From a phage, in the sequence record PZ445521.1: 64,000 nt of DNA. One strand, written 5' to 3'. Positions 4,278 through 61,487 of this stretch are shown one piece after another. The notes under the pieces are model-generated. The model was given only the letters and a program-made list of their open reading frames with translations, was not told where the DNA came from and did not search any database. Both the position numbers and the translations under genes were made by a program. Positions within the stretch are counted from its first letter, which is position 1. Each line of letters starts with the position of its first letter.

Positions 4278-4278
<1 letters not shown>

Positions 4279-33593: not shown

Positions 33594-33902
33594 TTATTTA
33601 CCAATAAATTGAAGCAAATGCTCAGCTTTCATACCATTAACAGAAATCAATTTGTCAATAGAAAAACCTCGCCACTCGCCAAGCTCAACATCAAATACTG
33701 GAATCATATCAGTAGATTCTTTCCGAGCAGATTCAGTCAATTTACCAGTTTGCATGGTTGGCATAAAGTCCGCATCACGAGTGCCTTTCATAGTACGAAT
33801 AGTACCATCAGACTTTTCAAAAACTACGTTTGAAATACCCATGGACAATTTAGTTTTCAAAATTTCACGAATTGCTACTTTTTGTTCAGTCGTCAGTTTC
33901 AT
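33594..33902 (-). CDS. hypothetical protein (position of 31.1)
   Basis: 102 aa ORF. Confidence 0.6.
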   Translation of the reverse strand: MKLTTEQKVAIREILKTKLSMGISNVVFEKSDGTIRTMKGTRDADFMPTMQTGKLTESARKESTDMIPVFDVELGEWRGFSIDKLISVNGMKAEHLLQFIGK

Positions 33903-34139
33903 TTATTTACCTATTACAGTTTTAATATGAGTTGTTCCACGTTCTTTAAGAGTGGAAAGCAATTTTTGGCATTTTTCTAAATCAGATTTCCAACTATACG
34001 GCCTATCAATACAAACCCATTCTGACTTATAATACTGTTTCCATTTAGAGAAAAAATACTTCTTATACTCTACAGCAAATGAAATGTTCTCGTTAGAATA
34101 AGAACTAATTGCTGTGAGCTGTACCAAACGAAATTTCAT
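33903..34139 (-). CDS. hypothetical protein (position of 31.2)
   Basis: 78 aa ORF. Confidence 0.55.
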   Translation of the reverse strand: MKFRLVQLTAISSYSNENISFAVEYKKYFFSKWKQYYKSEWVCIDRPYSWKSDLEKCQKLLSTLKERGTTHIKTVIGK

Positions 34140-34720
34140 TATTCACCACAGAATTCGTTGATATTTTCCCAGTTTAACTTATTCAAGTTTTTCTTAGGAA
34201 CATTAAACACTTCAATACCTGCATTTCGCAGAATATCATCCCAGCCAGGTTTATTTTTATCGTATGTTTCACAATAAACCAGCTTTTTAATTCCAGATTG
34301 AGCTATCGCTTTTGCACAATCTGGGCAAGGAGAAAGTGTTACATACATAGTAGCACCTTCAATAGAAGAACCATTTCGTGCAGCAAACAAAATCGCATTT
34401 AGTTCAGCGTGAATTTCATTTTTAGACGACCATTCAGAGTGAGCGCTACGGTGTTCTTTCGCCAAGACAAAACGATCAGTTGAACCAAACGATACGCATT
34501 CAGGCTTATGACCTTGAATGATAGTATGTTTAGGCTTGTTCAACAACCAGCCTTGTTCAGCAGCATAATCACAGCAATTCACACCACCAGCAGGTGAACC
34601 ATTATATCCGGTAGAAATAATACGTCCATTCTTTTCAATTACTGCTCCTACCTTCCAGGAGCAGCATTTTGATTCTTGCGATACTAAATATGCAATTTGA
34701 AGTACTGTACTCGCTTTCAT
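34139..34720 (-). CDS. cd: dCMP deaminase
   Basis: 193 aa; zinc-ligand HAE and PCxxC motifs. Confidence 0.92.
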   Translation of the reverse strand: MKASTVLQIAYLVSQESKCCSWKVGAVIEKNGRIISTGYNGSPAGGVNCCDYAAEQGWLLNKPKHTIIQGHKPECVSFGSTDRFVLAKEHRSAHSEWSSKNEIHAELNAILFAARNGSSIEGATMYVTLSPCPDCAKAIAQSGIKKLVYCETYDKNKPGWDDILRNAGIEVFNVPKKNLNKLNWENINEFCGE

Positions 34721-35055
34721 TTCATAATCACCAGATAAGCAGATTTAGCAGTTTCTACACGATAAATTTCGTGACGAAGTTTAGTTATACTTTTAATAAC
34801 AGAACTAATTATATTCTGCCCATCTTTAAAGCGGTTTTTCTTATCAATAAAAATTGCGCCAACCAGCTTTTTGTGAAGCTCAACTGGATACTTCGTCACA
34901 ATAATAGCATCATACACAGAAGGATGAATACTATTCACTAGAGTGTCATTCATTAAAGTTATTCTAATGAACTGTGCTGTTTCAGAGTCAAGCGCTCTAT
35001 GATCGCCAGTATCATTTTCAAGACAATTATCAATTATATCAGTTAAATTCATCAT
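34717..35055 (-). CDS. hypothetical protein (cd.1 position)
   Basis: 112 aa. Confidence 0.6.
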   Translation of the reverse strand: MMNLTDIIDNCLENDTGDHRALDSETAQFIRITLMNDTLVNSIHPSVYDAIIVTKYPVELHKKLVGAIFIDKKNRFKDGQNIISSVIKSITKLRHEIYRVETAKSAYLVIMK

Positions 35056-35288
35056 AGTACGCCATACACCCTTTGTGCTTCAACTAATCCATCAAAATCC
35101 AATTTGAGATGTGTTATTTGGTCACCATCACCTGGATTCACAATTACTAATACTGAACGAGGAGTTTCGGTAATAACGCGAACCGATGTTTCTGGAAATC
35201 GTTCAGAAACCTTATTTACCAATTCCTGAGCAAATAGTTTAACTTTTTCTTGGAATTCTTTAACAGTAATTGGTTTTTCACTTAGCAT
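35052..35288 (-). CDS. hypothetical protein (cd.2 position)
   Basis: 78 aa. Confidence 0.55.
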   Translation of the reverse strand: MLSEKPITVKEFQEKVKLFAQELVNKVSERFPETSVRVITETPRSVLVIVNPGDGDQITHLKLDFDGLVEAQRVYGVL

Positions 35289-35318
35289 TTTGTTTTCCTC
35301 ATTTGTTTCGGTAGAGCT

Positions 35319-35348
35319 ATAATATCACAACTCTACCACAAAGTAAAC
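35319..35348 (-). promoter_or_regulatory. early promoter with hairpin in the spacer
   Basis: minus GTTTAC, about 18 nt, TATTAT; inverted repeat ggtagag/ctctacc. Confidence 0.6.
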
Positions 35349-35352
35349 TATA

Positions 35353-35628
35353 TTAAATTGCTTTGAATTCTGATGTCTGCGATTCAAAACGAATATCACC
35401 TTTGATGACTAACTCAGCGTCAAGACCGAATACGACAATGATATGCGCGGAACCTGGATACAGCGTAATGGCAATAGAATCCACCTGGTCTGGAAGCAAA
35501 GTGTTCAATACATGAGTCACTTGAGCATGAATTCGAAGCTCGGCTGCGTTATCAAGCTTTTCAAACATATTATTAGCAATAATTTGGCTAAACACTACTT
35601 CTACGATTTTAGAATAAGTCGGAAACAT
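35353..35628 (-). CDS. hypothetical protein (cd.3 position)
   Basis: 91 aa. Confidence 0.55.
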   Translation of the reverse strand: MFPTYSKIVEVVFSQIIANNMFEKLDNAAELRIHAQVTHVLNTLLPDQVDSIAITLYPGSAHIIVVFGLDAELVIKGDIRFESQTSEFKAI

Positions 35629-35630
35629 AT

Positions 35631-35823
35631 TTACCTCACATAATTTTCTTCAAGCCAATCAATAACATCTAACGCATTATCAAAAGTTGAACCATCTACT
35701 TTGTCTTCTGTTTCATAATCAAGAACATCTAAGCCTACTCTTCCATTAACAATAGGCCATAAACAAAATAAATATTTCTTTTCTTTTTCAATTTTATCAC
35801 AAAGTTGATAAATCTTTTCTATG

Positions 35824-35831
<8 letters not shown>
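35631..35831 (-). CDS. hypothetical protein (cd.4 position)
   Basis: 66 aa. Confidence 0.5.
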
Positions 35832-37246
<1,415 letters not shown>

Positions 37247-37249
37247 TTA

Positions 37250-37474
37250 TTATTTCTCAACCAATGATTGAATATAATCATGCAGGTCTTTAGATGCTTT
37301 ACCCCACTTATTTTGGTATTCATTTTTAAGATTAGCACGTGATTGAGCTAATAAAACATCATTAGTTGGAGGTAAAGATTCTAACCGCTGAATCTGGCGT
37401 CCATAAATCATTGCAGCCATCTCGGATTCATAAATCAATCCTTTGAGATGTTCAAATTGATGCCATGAAATCAT
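37250..37474 (-). CDS. hypothetical protein (pseT.2 position)
   Basis: 74 aa. Confidence 0.55.
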   Translation of the reverse strand: MISWHQFEHLKGLIYESEMAAMIYGRQIQRLESLPPTNDVLLAQSRANLKNEYQNKWGKASKDLHDYIQSLVEK

Positions 37475-37770
37475 TTACATTTATCCTCTTTTAACTCTTG
37501 ACGATAATAACATATCATAGTTTTCTGGTCATGTACATATCGTTTTACATCATTAAGCCAAATACGAAATTCCTGGGAATCTTCAAATGGCATACCGACC
37601 CAAGCTTTACCATCGATAACTTTAACTTGCCAAGATAGTTTAGCTTCATCATATGACTTTATTTGTACAGGCCAATTAGGATGAACTGTTTCTTTCTTTA
37701 CTTCTAGAGGCTTTGTCGAACAACCAACTAGAAGACCAATAGATAATATTACTGCTGATAGTTTAATCAT
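37471..37770 (-). CDS. predicted lipoprotein (pseT.3 position)
   Basis: 99 aa; signal peptide with lipobox LLVGC. Confidence 0.65.
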   Translation of the reverse strand: MIKLSAVILSIGLLVGCSTKPLEVKKETVHPNWPVQIKSYDEAKLSWQVKVIDGKAWVGMPFEDSQEFRIWLNDVKRYVHDQKTMICYYRQELKEDKCK

Positions 37771-38120
37771 TTAGAAAGGTCCTGGATGTCTTCTGCGAAC
37801 TTGTTGAAGGAGTTGTTGATTTGTTTTTCAACCAATCCTGGCTTACGAGCCACCACATCCGCCTTCTTTGCATCTTTGCGCAGTTTTTCATTTTCACGCT
37901 CAATAGCAGCAATTGCCTCACGATTTTTATTATTCATCGCATCAATATAATTATACTGAATTCGCAAATTATTTAATGCTAAGGCGTTTTCATTGGCCGT
38001 TTTTGTAATTTCAGTAACTGATGTTTCTAATCTTTCTACCTTATTTTTTAAAATAATAGATGTTCCACCAAATACTATTACAAGTAATAGCAAACCTGCT
38101 GTCGTATTACTTAATTGCAT
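37767..38120 (-). CDS. predicted membrane-anchored coiled-coil protein
   Basis: 117 aa; hydrophobic N-terminal helix. Confidence 0.6.
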   Translation of the reverse strand: MQLSNTTAGLLLLVIVFGGTSIILKNKVERLETSVTEITKTANENALALNNLRIQYNYIDAMNNKNREAIAAIERENEKLRKDAKKADVVARKPGLVEKQINNSFNKFAEDIQDLSK

Positions 38121-38617
38121 AAAGTTTTAATAACCTCTATAATATCGTCTTGAGAAAGACCGTTAATTAAAATATGATGTTCCGCCGGAGATTTAGAAAT
38201 TTTAAAGCATGCCGCAACATCTTCTGCCATATCCGATGCGCTACGATTTGGATTACTAATTCCAAGACGATGTTTTCCCGTTAAAGGATTAACGATAATA
38301 TAGCATTTACAGCTATTGATATGAACATTAGGTTGAGTCTGATTAATGAACACTTCACAATCATACTTAGCGAGTTGATTTTCTAAAAAGACTTTCATCT
38401 CCTCAACTGCATCAGGAAGCATATCACGGGCTTGCTCAAGACGACGATTTCGATATTCTTTAATGGTCGTTTTCCGCTTGACTTGCTTAGCTAAATCTTT
38501 CTTAAGATCGGTGATATATCCAACTCGCCGATTTCCTTTAAATACAGAAATCCCATCTGTAGTATCACCGTATGCTTCAACGACCATTTCAGTAGTAATA
38601 AGCTGCAAATCCATCAT
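38111..38617 (-). CDS. alc: Alc, inhibitor of host transcription
   Basis: 167-168 aa; recognised T4 Alc. Confidence 0.88.
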   Translation of the reverse strand: MMDLQLITTEMVVEAYGDTTDGISVFKGNRRVGYITDLKKDLAKQVKRKTTIKEYRNRRLEQARDMLPDAVEEMKVFLENQLAKYDCEVFINQTQPNVHINSCKCYIIVNPLTGKHRLGISNPNRSASDMAEDVAACFKISKSPAEHHILINGLSQDDIIEVIKTLCN

Positions 38618-38622
38618 AAAGT

Positions 38623-38676
38623 CCTCATGTTATGTTAGTAAGACTACTATAACACAACACGAGGGACTTGTAAACA
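38623..38676 (-). promoter_or_regulatory. early promoter plus leader, copy 2 of the 54-nt repeat (upstream of alc)
   Basis: 53/54 identical to 23221-23274; GTTTAC, 18 nt, TATAGT, GAGG RBS. Confidence 0.7.
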
Positions 38677-38678
38677 AC

Positions 38679-40266
<1,588 letters not shown>

Positions 40267-40293
40267 AATAAAATGGGCCTTGCGGCCCACTCC

Positions 40294-41472
40294 TTAAAAG
40301 TATTTTTTAAAACTCATCATAACTTTATCATCAACATCATTATCAATCTGTGCAACAAGGTAAGATGACAGTTCTACTTCTTGTGGCGCGGATTGAACAT
40401 TATCAGAATTAAGATATTCACGAATCCAAGGATATGGATGTTTAACCGGAGCATCGGTAATCGGGCATGGAAGACCACAATGTTTCATACGAGATACAGT
40501 TAAGTAATCAATAAAGCTCCACATGCTATTTGTATTTAATCCAGGAACATCGCCATCTTTAAATAAATGAACTGCCCAATCTTTTTCTTGGCGGTTAACT
40601 TCCATGAAAATATCAACTGCTTCTTGTTCACACTCTTGAGCAATTTTAACCCATTCATCGCCATCAGTGCCAAGTTGAAGTTGACGAATAATATATTGAG
40701 TGCCTTTAAGGTGAAGCTGCTCATCACGTGCAATGAACTTCATAATCTTGGCATTACCTTCCATGATTTCCATGTTCTTATGGAAGTTAAAGGTACATGC
40801 GAAAGATACATAAAAACGAATAGCTTCCAATGCGTTGATTACATGCAAACAGAGGTAAAGAGATTTCATTAGCTCATGCTTCCAATACGTCTCATGCTCA
40901 ATAGCATCTTCAATAACGTCTTCGTCTGCATTAATTTCTTTTTGGTATTCGATATCAGCTTTAGCGTTTTCCCAATAACGAGTTTTAATCAGAACATCAT
41001 CATAATAACGTCCAATGGATTCAGCACGTTTCATAATAGCTTCATCTAATACAATTTCATCAAATACCTTCGATGGATCAGTATAAAGATTTCGCATGAT
41101 ATGTGTATATGAACGGCTGTGAATAGTTTCACTAAAAGTCCACGTAGCAACCCATGTATCAAGGCTTGGGTCTGAAATTAATGACATAAGTACAGCAGAC
41201 GGCGCACGACCCTGAATGCTATCCAAAAGTGATTGATACTTCAGGTTATTAGTAAAAATATTCTGCTGATACTGAGGAAGTTTATTAAATTGTGCAGCAT
41301 CCATCATCAAGTTTACTTCTTCAGGACGCCAGAAAAATGATAATTGCTTTTCAGTCAAATCTTCAAAAACTTTATGGCGTTGAATATCATAACGCGCAAT
41401 ACCAAGACCTGAACCGAAGAACATAGGTTCTTTTAAAACATCAACTGGATTTGTATTAAAAACTGTGCTCAT
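40294..41472 (-). CDS. nrdB: ribonucleotide reductase small subunit, uninterrupted
   Basis: 392 aa continuous ORF with ferritin-like ligands and C-terminal F. Confidence 0.92.
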   Translation of the reverse strand: MSTVFNTNPVDVLKEPMFFGSGLGIARYDIQRHKVFEDLTEKQLSFFWRPEEVNLMMDAAQFNKLPQYQQNIFTNNLKYQSLLDSIQGRAPSAVLMSLISDPSLDTWVATWTFSETIHSRSYTHIMRNLYTDPSKVFDEIVLDEAIMKRAESIGRYYDDVLIKTRYWENAKADIEYQKEINADEDVIEDAIEHETYWKHELMKSLYLCLHVINALEAIRFYVSFACTFNFHKNMEIMEGNAKIMKFIARDEQLHLKGTQYIIRQLQLGTDGDEWVKIAQECEQEAVDIFMEVNRQEKDWAVHLFKDGDVPGLNTNSMWSFIDYLTVSRMKHCGLPCPITDAPVKHPYPWIREYLNSDNVQSAPQEVELSSYLVAQIDNDVDDKVMMSFKKYF

Positions 41473-41523
41473 AAATTTTCCGCTTAGTTAATAGTTGGTG
41501 ACTCGTCCGTGAGTCAAATTATA

Positions 41524-43788
41524 TCATAATTTACAGGATGAACAATCTTCAGCTTTTGGAGTTTCTATTTCATAATCATCAGTACCAGAACCATCGCGGG
41601 TATTATGATAATAGAAATTTTTTCCGCCAAAATACCAAAAATACAAAAGGTCATCAATCATTATTGACATTGGAACCTTGCCTTTAGGGAAGATTTGGGG
41701 GTCATAGTATGTATTCGCCGAAGCTGATTGACAAACCCATTTCAGCATAATAGCTACCTGCGTAAGATAAGGTTTATTACCTTTCTTAGCTAATTTCCAT
41801 GTATAGTCGTAAAGGTCTATGTTATGCTCAATATTGGGCACGACTTGATTAAAGGAGCCCTCTTTTGATTCTTTAACAGAGACTGGTCCACGTGGAGGCT
41901 CGATACCGTTTGTACTGTTAGAAACTTGGGAAGATGACTCACATGGCATAAGTGCTGATAATGTGCTATTACGGATGCCAAAGAGCTTAAGGTCTTCCCG
42001 CAGCGACGACCAGTCACAAACGTATTTTGGAGCTGCGATTTGGTCAATCTTTTTATTGTACCAGTCGATAGGTAATTCGCCTCGAGACCAACGAGTGTCT
42101 GAATAATATTCGCAAGGTCCTTTTTCTTTGGCGAGCTTAATGGATGCTTTAATGAGTCCATACTGTAATCTCTCAAATAGTTCATGTGTTAAATCGTTAG
42201 CATCTTCATAAGAAGCAAAGTTACTTGCCAGCCAAGCTGCATAGTTAGTAACACCTACACCAAGGTTTCGACGCTTTTTAGCTTTTTCTGCTTCAGGAAC
42301 TGGATATCCTTGGTAATCCAAAAGATTATCAAGAGCACGAACTTGAACTTCTGCCAATTCATTAATTTTATCTTGGTCTTGCCAATCAAAGTTATCCAGC
42401 ACAAATGCAGATAATGTACACAATCCAATTTCAGCATCAGGACTATTCACATCATTTGTTGGAATAGCAATTTCACAGCACAAGTTGCTCTGACGAATAG
42501 GTGCCTTTTCACGAATAAATGGCGTATAGTTATTCGTATTATCAATGAACTGCACATAAATCCTTGCTGTTCCTGAGCGTTCAGTCATGAGCAATTCAAA
42601 TAGTTCACGGGCTTTAATGCGCTTTTTACGAATATTAGGGTCTTTTTCTGCTGCTTCGTATAATTCACGGAAACGGTCTTGGTCTTTAAAATAAGAATAA
42701 TAAAGCTCGCCACCCATTTCATGCGGACTGAACAAAGTAATGTAATCATTCTTTCCAAAACGTTCCATCATTAGATCATTCAGTTGAACACCATAATCCA
42801 TATGACGGATACGGTTTTCTTCTACACCTTTGTTATTTTTCAAAACGAGAAGATTTTCAACTTCCAAATGCCAAATAGGATAATAAGCAGTAGCAGCGCC
42901 GCCACGAATTCCACCCTGTGAGCATGATTTAACAGCAGTCTGAAAATGTTTCCAAAAAGGAATAACACCAGTATGGCGTACTTCACCCATGCCAATCTTA
43001 GAACCTTCGGCACGAATCATACCAACGTTAATACCAATTCCAGCGCGTTTGGAGATATATTCAACAATTGAAGCAGAAGCCTTATTGATAGACTTTAATG
43101 AATCACCTGCCTCAATAACAACGCATGAACTAAACTGCCGAGTTGGAGTACGGCAACCAGCCATAATAGGAGTTGGTAATGAAATCTGTCGAGTAGATAC
43201 TGCTTCATAAAAACGAATAACGTGTTTTAATCTATCAACAGGTTCATCTTGATGCAATGCCATTCCAATAGTCATAAATGCAAACTGTGGAGTTTCATAA
43301 ATTTGACCAGTGGTTTTATCTTTAACTAGATATTTTTCTTTTAATTGCATCGCCCCGGAATAAGTAAATTCCATATCCCGCTCATGCTTAATTTTTGATT
43401 CTAAAAATGTAATTTCTTCGGCAGAATATTTTGACAACAGTTCAGGGTCATATTTACCTTCATTTACACAGTAAGAAATATGGTCAATAAATGAACGTGG
43501 TTCATACTGCCCGTAAACATGCTTACGAAGAGCGAACATTAAACAGCGTGCAGCTACATATTGGTAATCAGGCTCTTCAACTGAAATAGAATTCGCAGCA
43601 GCCTTAATTACAATGGTTTGAATGTCATCAGTGGTCATTCCATCACGGAGATATGATTTAATATTTTCATATAATTCATAAGGATCTACAGATGTTCCTT
43701 CAGCTGCCCAAGATAAAACTTTAATAATTTTTTGCGGGTCAAAGCTCTGAGAAACACCACTACTTTTGATAACATTAATTAATTGCAT
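41524..43788 (-). CDS. nrdA: ribonucleotide reductase large subunit
   Basis: 754 aa; ATP-cone N-terminus, active-site Cys motifs, C-terminal CSSCKL. Confidence 0.95.
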   Translation of the reverse strand: MQLINVIKSSGVSQSFDPQKIIKVLSWAAEGTSVDPYELYENIKSYLRDGMTTDDIQTIVIKAAANSISVEEPDYQYVAARCLMFALRKHVYGQYEPRSFIDHISYCVNEGKYDPELLSKYSAEEITFLESKIKHERDMEFTYSGAMQLKEKYLVKDKTTGQIYETPQFAFMTIGMALHQDEPVDRLKHVIRFYEAVSTRQISLPTPIMAGCRTPTRQFSSCVVIEAGDSLKSINKASASIVEYISKRAGIGINVGMIRAEGSKIGMGEVRHTGVIPFWKHFQTAVKSCSQGGIRGGAATAYYPIWHLEVENLLVLKNNKGVEENRIRHMDYGVQLNDLMMERFGKNDYITLFSPHEMGGELYYSYFKDQDRFRELYEAAEKDPNIRKKRIKARELFELLMTERSGTARIYVQFIDNTNNYTPFIREKAPIRQSNLCCEIAIPTNDVNSPDAEIGLCTLSAFVLDNFDWQDQDKINELAEVQVRALDNLLDYQGYPVPEAEKAKKRRNLGVGVTNYAAWLASNFASYEDANDLTHELFERLQYGLIKASIKLAKEKGPCEYYSDTRWSRGELPIDWYNKKIDQIAAPKYVCDWSSLREDLKLFGIRNSTLSALMPCESSSQVSNSTNGIEPPRGPVSVKESKEGSFNQVVPNIEHNIDLYDYTWKLAKKGNKPYLTQVAIMLKWVCQSASANTYYDPQIFPKGKVPMSIMIDDLLYFWYFGGKNFYYHNTRDGSGTDDYEIETPKAEDCSSCKL

Positions 43789-44105
43789 AAGTCCTCAACT
43801 TGAAAATCGTCTTTAAACACTCGGTTAACTATATGAGCTATTATATCACCATGACACGGCTTTGGTTTACATGTGCATCCTAGCCTCATTCCACGTAAAG
43901 GCTCTAAATGTGCTTTAGTTATTTCTCCGGATTTAATTCGACGTATAAAATCTTTTTTGAATAATTCAATGGCAGCCTCCCGGCTGCCAGCATCTTTACC
44001 GACGTAATTTCCCCAAAATGTACCACGGTGAATATTAACATCAAAGTCGGATTTATATTTATTCACTACTCGGCATAGACGGCCCACGCTGGAATAATTC
44101 GTCAT
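43779..44105 (-). CDS. hypothetical protein with CxC...CHGD motif (nrdA.1 position)
   Basis: 108 aa; [13 protein letters not shown]. Confidence 0.6.
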
Positions 44106-44322
44106 ATTGTTTTTCCGTTAAAACAGTAATATCGTAGTAACAGTCAGAAGAAGTTTTAACTGTGGAAATTTTATTATCAAAATACTCACGAGTCATTTTA
44201 TGAGTATAATATTTTTTACCATAAATGATAATAGGCTGTTCTGGTCCTGGAACTTCTAACTCGCTTGGGTTAGGAAGTGTAAAAAGAACAACGCCAGAAG
44301 TATCTTTAAATCGTAAAATCAT
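44059..44322 (-). CDS. hypothetical protein (nrdA.2 position)
   Basis: 87 aa. Confidence 0.55.
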
Positions 44323-45179
44323 ATTGCCATTTTCCCTTTAATTGCTGGATGCGATTCATAATTTTCAAGGATAAAATCTTTCGGTTTCATGTATTCAGTT
44401 AACCAGTAAAGCTGTGTTTCGGTGTCACAATTTCCAAACTCTATAGGCCAATCAATTTTAAGTTCACATAGTTCTTTAGGCTCACGACGTAAAATTTCTT
44501 TACATTGCTCAGTATGATTCATATAGATGTGAGTATTACCACCAGAAAATATCAAATCTCCTGGGATAAGATTACACATCTTAGCCACAATATGCGTCAA
44601 GGCAGCGTACGAGGCAATGTTGAATGGCAATCCCAAGAAAACATCTACACTTCTTTGGTACCATTGTAAATCAAGATAACCATTACGCACATTAAACTGA
44701 TAGAACATATGACAGGGCGGTAATGCCATTTGATTGATTTCAGCTGGATTCCATGCTGAAACGATTTGACGTCGATCAGTTGGTAATTTTTTAATACGAT
44801 CAATAGTTTCAACTAATTGATCCACACCACCGAAATCACGCCATTGTTTACCGTATATAGGACCAAGTTCACCACTATGATATCCTAGGTCTTTAGCCTG
44901 GTTTTCATAGTTATCGTCCCAAATAGTTTTGCCTTGAATAAGACTACCATGAGTGCGAAGACGTAAATCATTAACATTGGTAGAACCGGAAATAAACCAT
45001 AAAAGCTCAGCAATGCATGCATTCCAGGCGAGCTTCTTAGTTGTTACTGCAGGAAAACCTTTACTTAAATCCCAGCGTAATTTAGTACCGAACAAAGCAA
45101 TTGTTCCTGTGCCCGTTCGGTCATCGGTTTCATAGCCATTTTCAAAAATGTCTTTAATTAAATCTTGGTATTGTTTCAT
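44319..45179 (-). CDS. td: thymidylate synthase, uninterrupted
   Basis: 286 aa continuous ORF; active-site PPCH present. Confidence 0.93.
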
Positions 45180-45224
45180 TTAGTACCTTATATAAATTAT
45201 AATACATTTTATGAAGCTAAATAA

Positions 45225-45572
45225 TCAATACGGTTTAGCATCAAATTTTCTCTCAATTTCAGGCGTGAAATATAATTCTTTACCGCGTTTGGAAAAGCGA
45301 CCAATAATATGATAATTATTCTCATCAAACGTGATATTACCAATATCCATAGCTTTCAACCAAATATCGATATTTCTATCCAACTTTATGTCAAAATTCC
45401 AATACGGAGAACTATTACCGAAAATACTGCAAGCGGATTCAGTAAAACAACTACTATAAATCTTATCTTTAGGAACTACTAATTGATAGACACCTTTAAT
45501 AAACTGAGGACCCTGCCATTTTGGTTGTTTCGTGTCTTTTTCTAATAGAATAGGGTAATAATTAAAATTCAT
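45225..45572 (-). CDS. hypothetical protein between frd and td
   Basis: 115 aa ORF filling a 412-bp gap between frd stop and td start; no motif recognised. Confidence 0.6.
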   Translation of the reverse strand: MNFNYYPILLEKDTKQPKWQGPQFIKGVYQLVVPKDKIYSSCFTESACSIFGNSSPYWNFDIKLDRNIDIWLKAMDIGNITFDENNYHIIGRFSKRGKELYFTPEIERKFDAKPY

Positions 45573-45591
45573 ATTTCCGCCACGCGTTATT

Positions 45592-46418
<827 letters not shown>

Positions 46419-46429
46419 ATTATCTCCTA

Positions 46430-46762
46430 TTAAAAAGGATCAGGAACATATCCGCTAGCTTTAATCATTTTAATTAACGTTAACATTCCTTTGTTAACTG
46501 CTCGTGAGATTTCATCAAAAACTTCATCACTAAAAAGTTCTAACACGCCCTTCTGAACTTTTAATTTACAGCCAACAATTTCTTCATCGCCTATAGTAAA
46601 TTCATTACCACCAATTCCACCGAAAAACTTAATTACACCAGTTAACTGTCTTCCACGAGAATATGGGTCGTGTGATAAAGTAATATGAGTCACCCCGGGT
46701 ACAGTTTTAAATTGGCAGCGAATATTTACTTGTGAAATTCCAGTTACATGAATGTCAGACAT
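46430..46762 (-). CDS. hypothetical protein (frd.2 position)
   Basis: 110 aa. Confidence 0.6.
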   Translation of the reverse strand: MSDIHVTGISQVNIRCQFKTVPGVTHITLSHDPYSRGRQLTGVIKFFGGIGGNEFTIGDEEIVGCKLKVQKGVLELFSDEVFDEISRAVNKGMLTLIKMIKASGYVPDPF

Positions 46763-46772
46763 AATATTTTCC

Positions 46773-47015
46773 TCAAATAGACTTTTTCACAATTTTCCAA
46801 TCAGCTTTAAACTGATCGACGTCAGAGTGATAAATCCAAAATCCTGCGCTTTCACCGTCTTCATAAAGCGGACACCCATCACATTCATCTTCCCATCCCA
46901 TGCCACGTAAAAGGTGTTCAGCTTTTTCAACAAGTTCAGAATCTTTACCGATGATATTAAAATACCATTTACCTCTAACTTCCGAATCTTTGATGCTCTG
47001 ACGTTGTAATCTCAT
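46773..47015 (-). CDS. hypothetical protein (frd.3 position)
   Basis: 80 aa. Confidence 0.55.
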   Translation of the reverse strand: MRLQRQSIKDSEVRGKWYFNIIGKDSELVEKAEHLLRGMGWEDECDGCPLYEDGESAGFWIYHSDVDQFKADWKIVKKSI

Positions 47016-47037
47016 TTTATTCTCCTCAAGTTGATAA

Positions 47038-47071
47038 GGCTATAGTATCATTACCATAGCCCGTTGTAAAC
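47038..47071 (-). promoter_or_regulatory. early promoter with hairpin in the spacer
   Basis: minus GTTTAC, 18 nt, TACTAT; inverted repeat ggctat/atagcc. Confidence 0.55.
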
Positions 47072-47073
47072 AA

Positions 47074-47376
47074 TTATTTTTGAATTTTATCGAGCCACTT
47101 ACCAGGCTTAATCATTTCTTTAGTAGCCTTTTCCATACTTCTGAACTTGACCAATAGAGGATAGGTATCGACACCCATAACTAAACTGGTTACAAGACTG
47201 TGTTCACCTACAAGCCATAACGAATACGTTTGAATACCGAGCCCGTAATTTCTGTCTTTATGGACCCGTACACCCATCACTTCAAATTTCTCACTAGCTT
47301 TTTCTACCGCATCCAGGAAATCATCTTTAGTCATATTAGGCCTTAAAAGTTTTTCGCAAAAGTTCAATGATTTCAT
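47074..47376 (-). CDS. hypothetical protein
   Basis: 100 aa. Confidence 0.55.
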   Translation of the reverse strand: MKSLNFCEKLLRPNMTKDDFLDAVEKASEKFEVMGVRVHKDRNYGLGIQTYSLWLVGEHSLVTSLVMGVDTYPLLVKFRSMEKATKEMIKPGKWLDKIQK

Positions 47377-47716
47377 CTACATTGTTTTCATCTACAATGC
47401 AGTGAATTTTTGTTACGCCAGAAACCTTGTCTTTGACTTCATCTTCTTCAGAAGTCGGTTCTTTATACTCACGAAAACAATGAAATTCATCTTCGCAAAT
47501 TTCTAAAAGTCTATCTTTGAGGTAAAAATGCTTTCCATTTGCGCATTCAATGTGTTTTACTGCTTTATATCCATTAGCGACGGAAACTTCTTTAACTTCA
47601 AACCATCCGCCATTATCTCGAATAGCTTTAACGATTGATGAATTAGAACGTGGGCTATAATTAATAAATGTATCAATAAGTCTTGGAACAAGTTCATACT
47701 TTTTGCCAATATACAT
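47336..47716 (-). CDS. hypothetical protein
   Basis: 126 aa; overlaps downstream ORF by 41 nt. Confidence 0.55.
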   Translation of the reverse strand: MYIGKKYELVPRLIDTFINYSPRSNSSIVKAIRDNGGWFEVKEVSVANGYKAVKHIECANGKHFYLKDRLLEICEDEFHCFREYKEPTSEEDEVKDKVSGVTKIHCIVDENNVDEIIELLRKTFKA

Positions 47717-47760
47717 TATGTTTTCCTCATTTTAACGGGGCTGTAATAGCCCCTTAATAA

Positions 47761-48012
47761 TTATTGTTCAATCAGTCCCATGTAAAATTCTGCGTCTTCA
47801 GAATCCATGCCGTCACAATACTCATTAGCCATAAAGCGGGTGAGGTCTTCAAGAGGACCTTCAATGACAATAGAAAAATTGCAATAATTGGGATCATCGT
47901 GAATACTTGTGATACTAAGCTCAGGATAACGATTACGAATAATTTCTTCAATATATTCAAAATCAACGATGTCAATATCAACTTTAGCCATATTATTTTC
48001 CTCTTTAATCAT
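47761..48012 (-). CDS. hypothetical acidic protein
   Basis: 83 aa; preferred over the overlapping alternate-frame ORF at 47772-47981. Confidence 0.5.
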
Positions 48013-48034
48013 CAGCAGTATTGCCGATAGTTGT

Positions 48035-48064
48035 ATAGTACCACAGTCCTTGTGGTATGTAAAC
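48035..48064 (-). promoter_or_regulatory. early promoter with hairpin in the spacer
   Basis: minus GTTTAC, 18 nt, TACTAT; inverted repeat taccaca/tgtggta. Confidence 0.55.
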
Positions 48065-48095
48065 TGTTTTGTGAAAAAATTTTTGAAATAAAAAA

Positions 48096-48114
48096 GGGGA
48101 CCCTAGAGGTCCCC
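48096..48114 (-). terminator. rho-independent terminator after gene 32
   Basis: hairpin ggggaccctagaggtcccc, T tract on minus strand. Confidence 0.75.
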
Positions 48115-48136
48115 AATTAATTAGTAATATAATCTA

Positions 48137-49045
48137 TTAAAGGTCATTCAAAAGGTCATCCAGGTCCGTGTCATCAGCACTAGATGAACTACCAGAGCTT
48201 GAGCTCATAAAATCATCTTCAGTTTTTGTATTAAAGTCATCAACATTGAATGCATCCAAATCATCAGCAACTTTATCAGCTTTCTTAGCAGCAGTTGCAG
48301 CAGCACTGCCCATCACAGCAGTTCCCATAACTTGACCGAATTTAGTGCTCAGTTCTTCAAATGATTTGAATTTATCTTTAGAAGTCATTTCAGAAAGATC
48401 AACCATTTGTTCGAACAGTTCTTTCTGGAAAGATTCATCGTCAATGTTTGGAATCGCAGATTGATTCAGGAATTTAGATTCATCGTAGTTACTAAATCCA
48501 GAAACTTGTTTAACTTTCAGTACAAAGTTAGCACCTTCCCACGGACAAGTTACATCAACCGGAGTTTCACCCATTTCAACATCAACTGCAATCATTGCAT
48601 TGATTTTATCCCAGATTTTCTTACCGAAACGGTATTTAAATACTTTACCTTCGTTTTCTGGAGCAGCTGGGTCTTTTACTACAAGAATGTTAGCCCAGTA
48701 AGAAGTTTTACGTTTAACAAGACTGTACTCTTTATTGTCAGTGTTGTACAGATCATTTTTACTGATGTATTGACATACTGGGCAAGAATCGTAATCACCG
48801 TGGGTAGATGAGCATGTTTCGATATACCATTTACCATTTTTCTTGAAACCGTGATTTACAAGAAGTGCGAATGGTGCTTGTTCATCATTTTTAGACGGAA
48901 GAAAACGAATTACTGCTTGACCGTTACCCGCATTGTCGAGTTTCAGTTTCCACTCGCCTTTATCTTCAGAAGAAAAACCACCTTTATTTCCAGCCAGTTT
49001 AGCCATTTGTGCAGCGAGTTCAGCAGTAGATTTACGTTTAAACAT
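48137..49045 (-). CDS. 32: single-stranded DNA-binding protein gp32
   Basis: 302 aa; recognised gp32 with Ser/Asp-rich acidic C-terminus. Confidence 0.95.
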
Positions 49046-49095
49046 TTTTATTTCCTTTTTAATTTAATTAACAGTTGGTGCTATGACACTTTACC

Positions 49096-49728
49096 TCATA
49101 GCTGGCATAATTCGCAATACTCTGGGTCTTCGAGAGGTATCCAACCCGAGTTGAAATACTTTACCATCGATTTAGCAGTTGTATCAGTTATATTTATATT
49201 ACCTTTAACTCTTCGCCATCCAGGAGTTTTACCGTACAGATTAGAGGATAATAATAACACATAATTCTCGTAAGCAATATGAGATAATTTCCAAGACTCT
49301 ATATTAGCTCGTGATGTTTTCCAAGGTCTGAAATCGTCACGGTTCATATAATTAGCCAATCTCATATGCTCTCTAACTTCCGGGTCTTTAGCTGGGTGAG
49401 TTTCACCACTCACACCAAATCCGCCGCCAGCATATACCAGATTAAAATAGTCTGGATTATCTCTGGCATTTACTTCAAGTTGGTATTTTCGCTCTGCTTC
49501 AATAACATCCAAATCATCATCAATTTGAATTATTTTAACGCTCGGTTTTTGAAGCATTACCGCATTTAAAAATCTTTTTTGTTTACACGAACTCCAGTAT
49601 TCCTTTCCGGAAGAGTCATATATTATTCCGTTCTCAAATGAGCAATTTAATTTACTACCGATATAGTAGTATGGCGGAGTCTTATTTTTGACACGGTCTT
49701 CAAATGTAAACCAATATACTATATTCAT
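49096..49728 (-). CDS. GIY-YIG homing endonuclease, SegG-like
   Basis: 210 aa; N-terminal VYW...YYIGS; sits between 59 and 32. Confidence 0.65.
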   Translation of the reverse strand: MNIVYWFTFEDRVKNKTPPYYYIGSKLNCSFENGIIYDSSGKEYWSSCKQKRFLNAVMLQKPSVKIIQIDDDLDVIEAERKYQLEVNARDNPDYFNLVYAGGGFGVSGETHPAKDPEVREHMRLANYMNRDDFRPWKTSRANIESWKLSHIAYENYVLLLSSNLYGKTPGWRRVKGNINITDTTAKSMVKYFNSGWIPLEDPEYCELCQL

Positions 49729-49729
49729 A

Positions 49730-50383
49730 TCAATACTTGCAAGATTTCACAGTTTCAATGAAAACACTTTTAGCTTTCTGCGAATCAATATTTAAAATTT
49801 TTCTATAAGCCTTTAACTTTATAGAATAATTATTCCAGACTAAATTATCAGTCTGTTCATCATGTTTATCGATTATATTTAAAAACGAATCAAGCAAGAT
49901 AAACGTCTCAAACGAAATTATATTCGATTGAAGTAGTTTAAAAATATAACTTGATTGAACTTTTGGATTATATTCAAAAATTTCTTTAAAAGCAGAAACT
50001 TCAACTTTTTTACTAAAATAATAAATGTTGCGAATATCTTCTTCAAACTTAAATTTAATTTGCTTTAAGCGTCCGATATATTCACGATAAAACACAAGTG
50101 CATCAGCGTCAGAGATGTCGCCAATCCAAGCATCTTGGTTAGCAACCAAATTACTTATAAAGATTAAAGCAAGTTCCTTTAATTTATATTTTTCTGATAA
50201 CTTCTGAAAAAAATACTTATCCCTTCGCTTTTGATAAGCGGCATCAGACACCCGCATGCACCAATTATACTTAATAACATCATACTTTCCATTCATATGT
50301 TGTTTTATCATTAAGTATAATTTATAAACTGATTTACCATCAATGTATCTTTCACCACCAGCAGGCATGCGGAGTTTAATCAT
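49730..50383 (-). CDS. 59: helicase loader gp59
   Basis: 217 aa as T4 gp59. Confidence 0.88.
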   Translation of the reverse strand: MIKLRMPAGGERYIDGKSVYKLYLMIKQHMNGKYDVIKYNWCMRVSDAAYQKRRDKYFFQKLSEKYKLKELALIFISNLVANQDAWIGDISDADALVFYREYIGRLKQIKFKFEEDIRNIYYFSKKVEVSAFKEIFEYNPKVQSSYIFKLLQSNIISFETFILLDSFLNIIDKHDEQTDNLVWNNYSIKLKAYRKILNIDSQKAKSVFIETVKSCKY

Positions 50384-57725: not shown

Positions 57726-60700
57726 ATGGCTACTTTAAAACAAATACAATTTAAAAGAAGCAAAACCGCAGGTGCACGTCCTGCTGCTTCAGTATTAGCC
57801 GAAGGTGAATTGGCTATAAATTTAAAAGATAGAACAATTTTTACTAAAGACGATTCAGGAAATATCATTGACTTAAGCATTTCCGCTGGCGGTAATATCA
57901 GTGGTAATATCACTCAAACTGGTGATTATACACAGACTGGAAAATTTAATTTAATTGGCCCGCAGATTATAGCAAGTGGTGGATATATTGAGTTTAATTA
58001 TCGTACTACTGGAAGTGGGGCTTGGTCCGGTCAACACACTGCAAAGGCTCCAATTTTTGTAGATTTAAGCTCAGCTACTTCCACATCTGAATATAATCCT
58101 ATAATTAAACAGCGCTTTAAAGATGGAACTTTTTCATTAGGTACTTTAGTTTCTGAAGGTTCGTTGAAGATTCATTATATTGATGAAACTGGTCAATCTA
58201 AATATTGGACATTTGCGCGCTCAGGTAATTTTCAAGTTGATTCTGGTAATTTATTAGTATCTGGTGGGTATTTAGTCGCTCAGAGTAATATTGAAACAAG
58301 AACAGGTTCTTTGATTGGTCCATCTGTTGTAACTAAAAATATTTCATTTGATACGAAAGCGTTTGGACAATACGATTCGCAGTCATTAGTTCAATATGTT
58401 TATCCTGGAACTGGTGAAACAAACGGAATTAATTACCTTCGTAAATTCCGTGCAAAATCTGGTGGTACGATTTATCATGAATTAGCTTCTGCACAAACCG
58501 GAAAAAGTGATGAACTGTCTTGGTGGACCGGTAATACAGCCGTTAATAAACAAATGGGCCTTCGCAATGATGGGTCTTTAGTGTTGCGACGCTCACTCGC
58601 AATTGGTACAATTACAACAGATGAAAACATTAATAATTACGGCTCAACTGGAGCAATGGGTGAATGCTATATAGTCATTGGAGATGCCGCAACTGGTGTA
58701 TCATATAAAAGATCTGGTGTATATGATTTAGTTGCTAATGGTCTTTCTATCGCGTCTATTACTCCTGACAGTTTCCGTAGTACTCGTAAAGCATTATTTG
58801 GACGTTCAGAAGACCAAGGCGGAACATGGAATATGCCTGGAACGAACGCCGCGTTTTTATCGGTTCAAACACAGGCTGATGAAAACACTGCTGGAGACGG
58901 TCAAACCCATATTGGATATAACTCTGGCGGTAAAATGAACCACTATTTCCGTGGTAAAGGAAAAACTAATATTAATACTCAAGAAGGCATGGAAGTTAAC
59001 CCGGGTATTTTGAAATTGGTAACTGGCTCTAATAATGTAATGTTTTATGCTGATGGCGGTATTACATCTGTTAAGCAGCTTTCAATATATAACGGCATAT
59101 ATTTAGCAGCTAATAATTCTACTGCTGGGCTAACATTCGCTCCAACTACTACAATTGATGGCACTAAGCAAATTTTGTGGGAAGGCGGTACTCGTGCTGG
59201 TCAGAATAAAAGCTATGTAACTGTTAAAGCATGGGGTAATTCATTTAACGCATCTGGCGATCGTAATCGTGAAACGGTTTTTGAAGTAGCTGATGGACAA
59301 GGATATTATTTTTATTCACAGCGTGTGGCTCCAAGTGGCTCTGAAACTACTGGGCCTGTTGTAACCCAGTTCAATGGACAAGTTAATGCTAGAGGAAGTA
59401 TTATTACTGACGGAAGTTTTAAAGTTAATGGATTAAGCACTTTAGTCGGTAATGTTACCATGTCTAATGGTTTGTTTGTTCAAGGTGGTTCTTCTATTAC
59501 AGGCCAAGTAAAAATTGGTGGAACAGCAGATGCATTAAGAATTTGGAATGCTGAATACGGGGCTATTTTCCGTCGTTCTGAAGATAAGCTTTATATTATT
59601 CCAACTCCGCAGAATGCTGGTGAATCAGGTGGTATTTCTAATTTACGTCCGTTCTATATTACATTAAGTACTGGTAAAGTTTCCATGGATCATGATGTAG
59701 ATATCGGCGGCGGTAGATTTAAAGTAGAAGTGGCTGGAACTACGGCTGGTCAACGTATTATAGTTAATGCAGCGAGCGATGCTATTAGAATAAATGCTCC
59801 AACACAAGAGTCTTCTAACTTCATTCAAGGACGTAAGGCTGATGTGAATAAATGGTATTTGGGTATTGGCGATGGCGGCAACGTCGTTCGTATGCACAGC
59901 TACACATATTCACATGGTATTGCATTAAATTCTGATTCTGTCGATATTACTAAGCCTCTTAAAGTCGGAAACGCCCAACTAGGAACTGACGGTAATATTA
60001 CCAATGGTTCAGGAAACTTTGCCAACTTAAATACCACGTTAAATCGTAAAGTTAATTCTGGATTTATTACTTATGGAGCAACCTCTGGATGGTATAAGTT
60101 TGCAACTGTAACAATGCCACAATCCACTTCAACAGTCTTCTTTAAAATAGTTGGAGGTTCTGGATTTAATAGCGGATTATTCACACAATGTAATATTGCT
60201 GAAATTGTTTTACGTACTAGTAATGAAAGACCTGCTGACTTAAATGCTGCATTATACACAAGAACAATTGGAGCTGCATTTAAAGATATTGCAGTTAATA
60301 ACGTCTCTGGAGATACATATGACATTTATGTTTCTGCTGGAACATATTGTAATCAATTAGCTTGTGAGTGGTCATGTACCGAAAATGCTACTGTTAGTGT
60401 TATTGGTATTAACTCATCTACACAATCACCTGTAGATGCTCTTCCAGATACAGCAGTTAACGGTCAAGTTGCTAATGTTCTTAATAACTTGGTTGATCGC
60501 GGTAAAGTTAAGCGTTATGAAGCCGATTCTGAAATAGCTATTAATAGCCCAACCGGTATTCGTATCAGAAGCAATGGCGATAAAACTGGTTCTGTGGCTA
60601 CAATGTTACGAAATGATGGCGGTAGTTTTTATATTCTGTTTACAGATAAAAATGCCACCGATGGCGCAGCAACTGTTAATGGTGATTGGAATAGTAAACG

Positions 60701-61487
60701 TCCTTTCGCAATTAACTTAACAACCGGCGAAGTGATGATGAATAATGGCATAGCTGTTCGCAGCGCTGCTTTATTCTATAATAGCATAAACGTCAAAGAT
60801 AATGGTTCTATTAACTTTGATAAATCAGGTGCTAACCCGAGAAATATGAGAATATTTCATGCTGGCGATGCTTCTCGCGGTAACCGTATTGAAATTGCCG
60901 ATGAAACTAACTATATTGCTTACTTTGAAAAAACTCCAGGTGGAGCTAACCGCTTTGTAGTAAATAATGCTACTGTGGCTGGTGTTAATCAAATGAATTC
61001 ATTTGGTATTAACATCAATAACGCACTTGGTGGAAACAGTATAGCATTTGGTGATAATGACACTGGCATTAAACAATCCGGTGACGGACTTCTTGATATC
61101 ATTACTAACGCCGCACGACGAATGAGATTCCAGACGGGTGACACTTATTCTGACATGAATATAAATGCTCCAAACGTTTATATTCGTTCTGATATTCGTT
61201 TGAAATCTAATTTCAGACCTATTGAAAATGCTCTTGAAAAGGTTGAGCAGCTTGATGGTTTAATCTATGATAAAGCTGACTATATAGGTGGTGAAATTGT
61301 TCAGACTGAAGCAGGTGTTATTGCTCAGAAATTGAACGAAGTATTACCTGAAGCAGTTCGTGAAGTTGAAGATATTAAGGGTAATAAAATACTCACTATT
61401 TCTTCTCAATCCCAGATTGCTCTTCTAGTTGAAGCTGTGAAAACACTTTCTGCTCGTGTAAAAGAACTTGAATCTAAACTTATGTAA
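57726..61487 (+). CDS. 37: long tail fibre distal subunit gp37, T2/T6-type with C-terminal chaperone-like domain
   Basis: 1253 aa; N-terminus as gp37; C-terminal about 100 aa from SDIRLKSN resembles an auto-cleaving intramolecular chaperone. Confidence 0.9.
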   Translation: MATLKQIQFKRSKTAGARPAASVLAEGELAINLKDRTIFTKDDSGNIIDLSISAGGNISGNITQTGDYTQTGKFNLIGPQIIASGGYIEFNYRTTGSGAWSGQHTAKAPIFVDLSSATSTSEYNPIIKQRFKDGTFSLGTLVSEGSLKIHYIDETGQSKYWTFARSGNFQVDSGNLLVSGGYLVAQSNIETRTGSLIGPSVVTKNISFDTKAFGQYDSQSLVQYVYPGTGETNGINYLRKFRAKSGGTIYHELASAQTGKSDELSWWTGNTAVNKQMGLRNDGSLVLRRSLAIGTITTDENINNYGSTGAMGECYIVIGDAATGVSYKRSGVYDLVANGLSIASITPDSFRSTRKALFGRSEDQGGTWNMPGTNAAFLSVQTQADENTAGDGQTHIGYNSGGKMNHYFRGKGKTNINTQEGMEVNPGILKLVTGSNNVMFYADGGITSVKQLSIYNGIYLAANNSTAGLTFAPTTTIDGTKQILWEGGTRAGQNKSYVTVKAWGNSFNASGDRNRETVFEVADGQGYYFYSQRVAPSGSETTGPVVTQFNGQVNARGSIITDGSFKVNGLSTLVGNVTMSNGLFVQGGSSITGQVKIGGTADALRIWNAEYGAIFRRSEDKLYIIPTPQNAGESGGISNLRPFYITLSTGKVSMDHDVDIGGGRFKVEVAGTTAGQRIIVNAASDAIRINAPTQESSNFIQGRKADVNKWYLGIGDGGNVVRMHSYTYSHGIALNSDSVDITKPLKVGNAQLGTDGNITNGSGNFANLNTTLNRKVNSGFITYGATSGWYKFATVTMPQSTSTVFFKIVGGSGFNSGLFTQCNIAEIVLRTSNERPADLNAALYTRTIGAAFKDIAVNNVSGDTYDIYVSAGTYCNQLACEWSCTENATVSVIGINSSTQSPVDALPDTAVNGQVANVLNNLVDRGKVKRYEADSEIAINSPTGIRIRSNGDKTGSVATMLRNDGGSFYILFTDKNATDGAATVNGDWNSKRPFAINLTTGEVMMNNGIAVRSAALFYNSINVKDNGSINFDKSGANPRNMRIFHAGDASRGNRIEIADETNYIAYFEKTPGGANRFVVNNATVAGVNQMNSFGININNALGGNSIAFGDNDTGIKQSGDGLLDIITNAARRMRFQTGDTYSDMNINAPNVYIRSDIRLKSNFRPIENALEKVEQLDGLIYDKADYIGGEIVQTEAGVIAQKLNEVLPEAVREVEDIKGNKILTISSQSQIALLVEAVKTLSARVKELESKLM

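What the first reader, a model, noticed from the sequence alone, without database searches (positions are those of the whole stretch)
40294..41472. nrdB is uninterrupted (no group I intron, no I-TevIII)
The small RNR subunit reads as one 392-aa ORF. Reference T4 carries a group I intron with a homing endonuclease in nrdB. This phage therefore carries an intron-minus allele, a potential intron homing target.
Basis: partly seen in the sequence, partly recalled or inferred. Interest (0 to 1): 0.35.

Follow-up and report, generated by a model that had tools for sequence, protein, structure and literature searches.

The report
Ordinary intron-free phage nrdB gene
This T4-like phage has an uninterrupted gene for the small subunit of ribonucleotide reductase, which is the usual state among T4 relatives (T4 itself is the exception), so it is an ordinary, already published allele that a mobile intron could still invade.

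Summary
Window 40294-41472 (minus strand) is one 392-aa ORF encoding an intact class Ia RNR beta subunit. It is colinear with spliced T4 NrdB, apart from a net 4-residue length difference in a variable loop.

The T4 intron position falls between window bases 40797 and 40796. The window contains no intron, I-TevIII or mobE sequence.

The 16.1-kb stretch around the gene is 100% identical to Shigella phage JK38, where nrdB is already annotated as one CDS.

The intron-free state is the norm. About 1248 phage records read uninterrupted across this junction, and about 116-118 carry the intron. Variable occurrence of this intron has been reported since 1987.

T4's own I-TevIII is a truncated, defective remnant, and T4's intron is mobilised in trans by MobE.

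The "potential homing target" reading is supported. From -31 to +35 the site differs from the biochemically tested substrate at two synonymous positions (-5, -2). Phage vB_EcoM_F1 has the same allele type with an intact-I-TevIII intron, and near the junction it differs from the window only at those two positions.

Verdict: real, ordinary and already known; low interest.

The parts
40294..41472 (-). nrdB, the class Ia ribonucleotide reductase beta (R2) subunit. It is 392 aa and uninterrupted.
   Evidence: ORF. Pfam PF00268 E=3.5e-36. E. coli R2 E~1e-126, with W48, D84, E115, H118, Y122, E216, E251 and H254 aligned to E. coli W48, D84, E115, H118, Y122, E204, E238 and H241. 100% identical to JK38 QEG06071 CDS.
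40796..40797 (-). Empty intron insertion site. The last exon-1 base (T) is at 40797 and the first exon-2 base (G) is at 40796. The site is phase 1 within the Cys226 codon, 10 codons after iron ligand Glu216.
   Evidence: T4 exon/intron boundaries derived (exon 1 ends ...TTTGCGT, intron AAAATGCGCC...ACATACG, exon 2 GTACCTTT). Junction alignment.
40762..40841 (-). I-TevIII homing-site region, -45 to +35 relative to the insertion site. It is identical to the tested T4 intron-deleted substrate from -31 to +35, except at -5 (C, window 40801) and -2 (A, window 40798). The cleavage positions -14/-16 (about window 40810-40812) are unchanged.
   Evidence: Cleavage positions from PMC1865063.
41321..41377 (-). 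T2-type MobE target region (gene nt 96-152). Codon 42 is AAG (Lys), and the block encoding FFWRPEE is identical to T2H.
   Evidence: MobE nicks mapped to nt 122-126 of T2 nrdB, and AAG at codon 42 in all mobE-less phages (PMC2790892).
41473..41523 (-). 51-nt nrdA-nrdB spacer with no mobE, nrdB.1 or hef insert. A TATAAT hexamer (41518-41523) directly follows the nrdA stop codon.
   Evidence: Sequence. No blast match to the T4 mobE/nrdB.1 region. T2H has the same 51-nt spacing. PMC2790892 places the nrdB middle promoter at the nrdA 3' end or spacer in mobE-less phages.
41524..43788 (-). nrdA, the RNR alpha subunit. It is 754 aa and uninterrupted.
   Evidence: Pfam ATP-cone, Ribonuc_red_lgN and Ribonuc_red_lgC. 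109 mismatches and no gaps against T4 nrdA.
39856..40290 (-). denA (endonuclease II), a GIY-YIG-domain protein directly downstream of nrdB. This is a standard T4 gene, not an intron or homing endonuclease.
   Evidence: Pfam GIY-YIG E=5.4e-6. phrog_1111 E=2.2e-65. 7 of 435 nt differ from T4 denA.

Best explanation
The region is the ordinary, functional, intron-free nrdB gene of a T2-like Tequatrovirus. The 16.1 kb around it is identical to Shigella phage JK38. The gene encodes the di-iron/tyrosyl-radical beta subunit that works with the adjacent NrdA to make deoxyribonucleotides during infection.

It has never carried, or at least shows no trace of, the T4/RB3-type group I intron. The nrdA-nrdB spacer is also free of mobE. 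This makes it an empty site for two known mobile elements:

2. **The T4-type mobE cassette.** MobE nicks near nt 122-126 of nrdB and can drag the defective T4 intron along in trans.

Shown here: the anatomy, colinearity, conserved active-site residues, site similarity, the population frequency of the intron, and the existence of a naturally invaded sister allele. Inferred: that this particular allele would actually be cleaved and converted in a mixed infection.
For: - **Gene:** one ORF with a strong family match and intact catalytic residues.
- **Colinearity:** it aligns with the T4 exons and skips exactly T4's 598-nt intron.
- **Public record:** 100% identity to JK38 over window 33800-49900.
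- **Layout:** frd-td.1-td-nrdA.2-nrdA.1-nrdA-(51 nt)-nrdB, the same as T2H, with a 1179-nt nrdB.
- **No mobile-element sequence:** no intron, mobE or td-intron sequence in the window.
- **Frequency:** a 120-nt junction probe matches uninterrupted in 1248 phage records. About 116 records give split matches, and 118 records hold at least 80% of the T4 intron.
- **Homing site:** it differs from the tested substrate only at -5 and -2 within -31..+35. The cleavage geometry comes from PMC1865063.
- **MobE target:** the region is T2-like, with AAG at codon 42 and an identical FFWRPEE block (PMC2790892).
- **Natural precedent:** vB_EcoM_F1 has window-type exons (39/676 and 6/503 mismatches) and the same 51-nt spacer. 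It also has a 1091-nt intron with a 269-aa I-TevIII that keeps H26, H27, N39 and H48. Within -80..+67 it differs from the window only at -5 and -2.
Against: - Cleavage of this exact site (C at -5, A at -2) has not been tested. The published substrate was T4 nrdB with the intron deleted, and the footprint limits appear only in a figure I could not read.
- All six intron-plus alleles examined carry T(-5)/G(-2). The recipient state before invasion is therefore unknown.
- RB3, which has mobE, carries a window-like sequence at the MobE nick region. Sequence alone therefore does not cleanly separate MobE-sensitive from MobE-immune alleles.
Confidence: 0.93

Rival explanations
1. The allele is a homing-resistant variant. 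The synonymous changes at -5 and -2 would reduce I-TevIII recognition or make an inserted intron splice poorly, so this lineage stays intron-free by immunity rather than by lack of exposure.
For: - All six intron-plus alleles examined have T(-5)/G(-2), while the window has C/A and T2H has T/A.
- G(-2) lies in the stretch that can pair with the intron's GCGC just after the 5' splice site.
- A toy fold shifts the pairing register when the window-type flank is used.
Against: - Both positions lie between the cleavage site (-14/-16) and the insertion site. Repair from a donor would convert them automatically, so their linkage to the intron is expected without any resistance.
- F1 and G2285 keep window-type bases at -32 to -47 and carry the intron. 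The rest of the site is therefore clearly permissive.
[quoted passage not shown] Whether I-TevIII tolerates these two changes is untested (PMC1865063).
- The 23-nt fold is not a real P1 model.
Confidence: 0.1
2. The allele is a secondary intron loss: an ancestor had the intron and lost it precisely.
For: - The homing cycle (invasion, endonuclease decay, loss) is the accepted model.
- T4's eroded I-TevIII has been read as an intron on its way out (PMC1865063).
Against: - The window lacks the T(-5)/G(-2) state shared by every intron-plus allele examined. It also lacks the T4/RB3/JK45-type flank at -32 to -47.
- Its junction is the common type: 179 records are at least 99% identical to the 120-nt probe.
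- Loss by recombination with an intron-free allele would erase all traces, so this explanation cannot be fully excluded.
Confidence: 0.05
3. The uninterrupted ORF is an assembly or annotation artefact.
For: None found. The related JK38 record does contain a probable 730-bp duplication artefact elsewhere, in gp37.
Against: More than a thousand independent phage records show the same uninterrupted junction, and the reading frame and catalytic residues are intact.
Confidence: 0.01

Closest known systems
Phage T2 / T2H nrdB (AY262132), the classical intron-free, mobE-free allele
   Same: - Same length: 1179 nt, 392 aa.
- Colinear with no gaps, 93.6% nt identity.
- Same 51-nt nrdA-nrdB spacer, and the same td.1 and uninterrupted td upstream.
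- AAG at codon 42.
- A at -2 of the intron insertion site.

   Different: 76 substitutions, including C instead of T at -5 of the insertion site and four synonymous changes within or next to the MobE nick region.
Shigella phage JK38 nrdB (MK962755, QEG06071)
   Same: Identical sequence across window 33800-49900, annotated as a single CDS.
   Different: Nothing differs in this region. Elsewhere the record differs from the window by 1 mismatch in 33.9 kb and by a 730-bp tandem duplication in gp37.
Phage T4 nrdB (NC_000866) with its 598-nt group IA intron and defective I-TevIII
   Same: - The same protein outside a variable loop.
- Exon 2 is 97.0% identical.
- The amino-acid sequence around the junction is identical (VINALEAIRFYVSFAC|TFNFHKN).

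   Different: - T4 has the intron, a truncated 97-codon I-TevIII remnant, mobE and nrdB.1 between nrdA and nrdB, and 4 fewer residues.
- T4 also carries divergent patches at nt 61-180 (the MobE target region) and nt 481-600.

Phage vB_EcoM_F1 / RB3-type nrdB with the 1091-nt intron and intact I-TevIII
   Same: F1's exons are window-type (94.2% and 98.8% identity), with the same spacer and no mobE.
   Different: F1 carries the full intron and a 269-aa HNH endonuclease, with T/G instead of C/A at -5/-2.

Membership tests
Class Ia ribonucleotide reductase beta subunit (NrdB/R2) | Sequence match to the Ribonuc_red_sm family above the curated threshold | tested here: met
   PF00268 at 125.5 bits against a cutoff of 33.6. 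E. coli R2 at E~1e-126 over residues 3-388.
Class Ia ribonucleotide reductase beta subunit (NrdB/R2) | Di-iron ligands, the radical tyrosine and the radical-transfer tryptophan | tested here: met
   In the alignment, W48, D84, E115, H118, Y122, E216, E251 and H254 align with E. coli W48, D84, E115, H118, Y122, E204, E238 and H241. The roles of these residues come from established knowledge of E. coli R2.
Class Ia ribonucleotide reductase beta subunit (NrdB/R2) | A partner alpha subunit encoded next to it | tested here: met
   nrdA lies at 41524-43788 on the same strand, 51 nt upstream.
Class Ia ribonucleotide reductase beta subunit (NrdB/R2) | Enzymatic activity | not testable with these tools
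   This needs biochemistry.
T-even nrdB group I intron with I-TevIII (intron-plus allele) | Intron sequence between the exon-1 ...GCGT and the exon-2 GTACC... | tested here: not met
   The junction is continuous at 40797|40796. Neither intron version gives a blast hit anywhere in the window.
T-even nrdB group I intron with I-TevIII (intron-plus allele) | An HNH endonuclease ORF within nrdB | tested here: not met
   There is no such ORF. The only nearby nuclease is denA, downstream of nrdB.
I-TevIII homing site (cleavable intron-free target) | An uninterrupted exon junction | tested here: met
I-TevIII homing site (cleavable intron-free target) | Sequence identity with the experimentally cleaved substrate across the cleavage (-14/-16) and insertion sites | tested here: inconclusive
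   Within -31..+35, 65 of 67 positions are identical. The differences are at -5 and -2, and the cleavage positions are identical. The exact footprint limits are only in a figure of PMC1865063, and tolerance to these two changes is unpublished as far as I could find.
I-TevIII homing site (cleavable intron-free target) | Evidence that this allele type has been invaded | tested here: met
   vB_EcoM_F1 and about 8 other phages join a window-type exon-1 end to the intron at 95-97.5% identity.
I-TevIII homing site (cleavable intron-free target) | Actual cleavage or homing | not testable with these tools
   This needs an enzyme assay or a phage cross.
MobE target (T2-type nrdB 5' region) | No mobE in the nrdA-nrdB spacer, AAG at codon 42, and a conserved FFWRPEE-coding block | tested here: met
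   The criteria are from PMC2790892.
MobE target (T2-type nrdB 5' region) | MobE-dependent nicking | not testable with these tools
   This needs in vivo primer-extension mapping, as in PMC2790892.

The most novel reading that the evidence does not exclude
The two synonymous changes next to the insertion site (C at -5, A at -2) could mark a naturally selected allele that is partly refractory to I-TevIII, or that would mis-specify the 5' splice site if the intron arrived without co-conversion. The common intron-free junction type would then be an immunity allele in an ongoing intron-host arms race.
Probability: 0.08. Interest if true: 0.3.

Novelty: already known. Interest (0 to 1): 0.07.

Why it matters
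It matters very little. An uninterrupted nrdB is the default in T4-like phages. The sequence around the gene is already in GenBank with this annotation. The patchy distribution and homing of the nrdB intron are textbook material.

The only modest value is as a clean example. The comparison with phage vB_EcoM_F1 shows a natural invasion of this same allele type. Its co-conversion tract is confined to the roughly 15 bp between the I-TevIII cut site and the insertion site.

Tried and rejected
1. **Rfam.** A gathering-threshold scan of the window for group I introns found nothing. The positive control on T4 and JK45 loci, which contain the nrdB and td introns, also found nothing. I discarded Rfam as evidence and used direct alignment and blast instead.
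2. **A divergence boundary at the insertion site.** Exon 1 is 84% and exon 2 is 97% identical to T4, which suggested a mosaic boundary at the insertion site. Sliding windows show the divergence sits in two patches: nt 61-180 (MobE target region) and nt 481-600 (variable loop). I rejected the boundary idea.
3. **The downstream GIY-YIG ORF as a homing endonuclease.** The ORF at 39856-40290 is denA (endonuclease II), a standard T4 gene.
4. **Salmonella phage Lv5cm as a naturally invaded window-type allele.** Its exon 1 is only 84% identical to the window, so I rejected it. A chimeric exon-intron probe then found F1 and others.
5. **A mini-fold of the P1 region.** A 23-nt fold with window-type versus intron-type flanks was suggestive at most and is not a valid intron model.
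6. **The I-TevIII footprint.** I could not read its extent, because it appears only in a figure of PMC1865063.

Full report
**Observation**

The ORF list shows one open reading frame at window 40294-41472 on the minus strand. It is 392 aa with an ATG start. It matches Pfam Ribonuc_red_sm (PF00268) at E=3.5e-36. It aligns to E. coli R2 crystal-structure sequences at E~1e-126 over residues 3-388.

In that alignment the radical-transfer Trp48, the iron ligands Asp84, Glu115, His118, Glu216, Glu251 and His254, and the radical Tyr122 are all conserved. The roles of these residues come from established knowledge of E. coli R2. The gene is flanked by nrdA (41524-43788) upstream and denA (39856-40290) downstream, as in T4.

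**Source of the sequence**

Megablast of 39800-43900 finds Shigella phage JK38 (MK962755, Tequatrovirus) at 100% identity. Window 33800-49900 is identical to that record base for base, and nrdB is annotated there as a single CDS.

The rest of the window differs from JK38 by one mismatch in 33.9 kb. The JK38 record also has a 730-bp tandem duplication inside gp37 that the window lacks.

**Colinearity with T4**

I took T4's nrdB gene from NC_000866 and derived its boundaries. Exon 1 is gene nt 1-664 and ends ...TTTGCGT. The intron is nt 665-1262 (598 nt, AAAATGCGCC...ACATACG). Exon 2 starts GTACCTTT.

The window gene aligns as follows:

| Window gene nt | T4 gene nt | Identity |
|---|---|---|
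| 1-674 | 1-662 | 84.4% |
| 677-1179 | 1263-1765 | 97.0% |

The empty insertion site therefore lies between window 40797 and 40796, in phase 1 of the Cys226 codon.

The 392 versus 388 aa difference is a net 4-residue indel in a variable loop at about residues 178-200. T2H, RB3 and JK45 all have the 392-aa form, so T4 is the deviant.

Local blastn of both intron versions (T4 598 nt, JK45 1091 nt), the T4 mobE/nrdB.1 region and the td intron finds nothing in the window. The td gene (44319-45179) is also uninterrupted.

The Rfam negative for the window has no value. The same search missed the introns in the T4 and JK45 control loci.

**How unusual is this?**

It is not unusual.

- A 120-nt probe centred on the junction matches uninterrupted (at least 80% coverage in one place) in 1248 phage records.
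- About 116 records give split matches.
- 118 records hold at least 80% of the T4 intron.

These counts include duplicate RefSeq/GenBank entries and laboratory T4 strains on both sides.

The literature agrees. T2 and T6 lack the nrdB intron (PMC1865063, citing Pedersen-Lane & Belfort 1987). [quoted passage not shown]

T4's I-TevIII is a defective remnant whose catalytic HNH half has been deleted (annotation; PMC1865063). The active enzyme is in RB3-type introns.

T4's intron is inherited in crosses only because the neighbouring free-standing endonuclease MobE nicks T2 nrdB at nt 122-126 and triggers gene conversion (PMC2790892).

**Is it a homing target?**

[quoted passage not shown] The tested substrate was T4 nrdB with the intron deleted.

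Against that sequence the window is identical from -31 to +35, except for T>C at -5 and G>A at -2. Both changes are synonymous. Further differences begin at -32.

For MobE, the window has the T2-type features: AAG at codon 42 and an FFWRPEE-coding block identical to T2H. One caveat is that RB3, which has mobE, is also window-like in this region.

**A natural precedent**

A chimeric probe joined the window's exon-1 end (236 nt) to the first 200 nt of the intron. It matched end to end at 95-97.5% identity in about nine phages.

In vB_EcoM_F1 the exons are window-type, with 39/676 and 6/503 mismatches. The nrdA-nrdB spacer is the same 51 nt, without mobE. The intron is 1091 nt and encodes a 269-aa I-TevIII that retains H26, H27, N39 and H48. 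These are the residues whose alanine substitutions abolished cleavage in PMC1865063.

Within -80 to +67 of the insertion site, F1 differs from the window only at -5 and -2. F1 keeps the window-type bases at -32 to -47, which T4, RB3 and JK45 do not.

All six intron-plus alleles examined carry T(-5)/G(-2). Both positions lie between the cut site and the insertion site. The simplest reading (an inference) is homing into a window-type allele with a very short co-conversion tract. This supports "potential homing target" but does not prove cleavage of the exact C(-5)/A(-2) site.

**Divergence pattern**

The lower exon-1 identity to T4 is not a boundary at the insertion site. It comes from two patches, and the rest of the gene is 88-100% identical:

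| Gene nt | Identity to T4 | Feature |
|---|---|---|
| 61-180 | 73-80% | Region of the MobE nick site |
| 481-600 | 47-62% | Variable loop |

**Verdict**

The feature is ordinary and already public.

Noticed in passing
L011 (vB_EcoM_F1, MT682712) 2061-4330, compared with window 40294-41472: A sister phage has the same nrdB allele type plus a 1091-nt intron with an intact I-TevIII. Near the junction it differs from the window only at -5 and -2. This implies a natural co-conversion tract shorter than about 30 bp, lying between the cut site and the insertion site.
   Followed up: partly
window 1-64000; L001 and L004 as controls: An Rfam gathering-threshold search finds no group I intron even in T4 and JK45 loci that contain the nrdB and td introns. 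Rfam negatives for ORF-bearing phage introns are therefore uninformative.
   Followed up: yes
window 44319-45179 and 45225-45572 (minus strand): The td gene is also uninterrupted, with no td intron or I-TevI. A td.1-like ORF (115 aa, phrog_1928, function unknown) sits between frd and td, as in T2H but not in T4.
   Followed up: partly
window 57726-61487 (gp37); duplicated segment 59701-60430: The public JK38 record has a 730-bp tandem duplication in the long tail-fibre gene, which splits it into two annotated CDSs. In the window gp37 is one 1253-aa ORF. The duplication is probably an assembly artefact in the record, or a real variant.
   Followed up: partly
window about 40262-40296 (minus strand): A strong hairpin (GGGCC-GCAA-GGCCC, extended; -18 kcal/mol, z=-4.7) lies between the nrdB stop codon and the denA ATG. 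It pairs over the denA GGAG and is followed by a U-rich run. The sequence is identical in T4.
   Followed up: partly
window 49096-49728 (minus strand): A 210-aa ORF lies between gene 32 and gene 59, the position of segG in T4. It matches a PHROG homing-endonuclease family (phrog_7504, E=2e-133) but has no Pfam hit. It is the only ORF annotated as a homing endonuclease among the JK38 annotations that cover the window.
   Followed up: partly
window 41518-41523 (minus strand): A perfect TATAAT hexamer immediately follows the nrdA stop codon in the 51-nt spacer. [quoted passage not shown] The upstream MotA-box match is imperfect (TTGTTCA).
   Followed up: no
Relatives listed (UFV-AREG1 KX009778; PYPS2T MH809535): Some close relatives have nrdA split into two CDSs. 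In UFV-AREG1 a homing-endonuclease gene is annotated at the locus. The nrd region is thus a hot spot for mobile endonucleases, but the window's nrdA is intact.
   Followed up: no
L010 (vB_EcoM_G2285, Mosigvirus): The nrdB intron is 99.7% identical to T4's over the shared parts in a phage of a different genus, whose nrdB exons are only about 79% identical to the window. This is consistent with recent horizontal spread of the intron.
   Followed up: no
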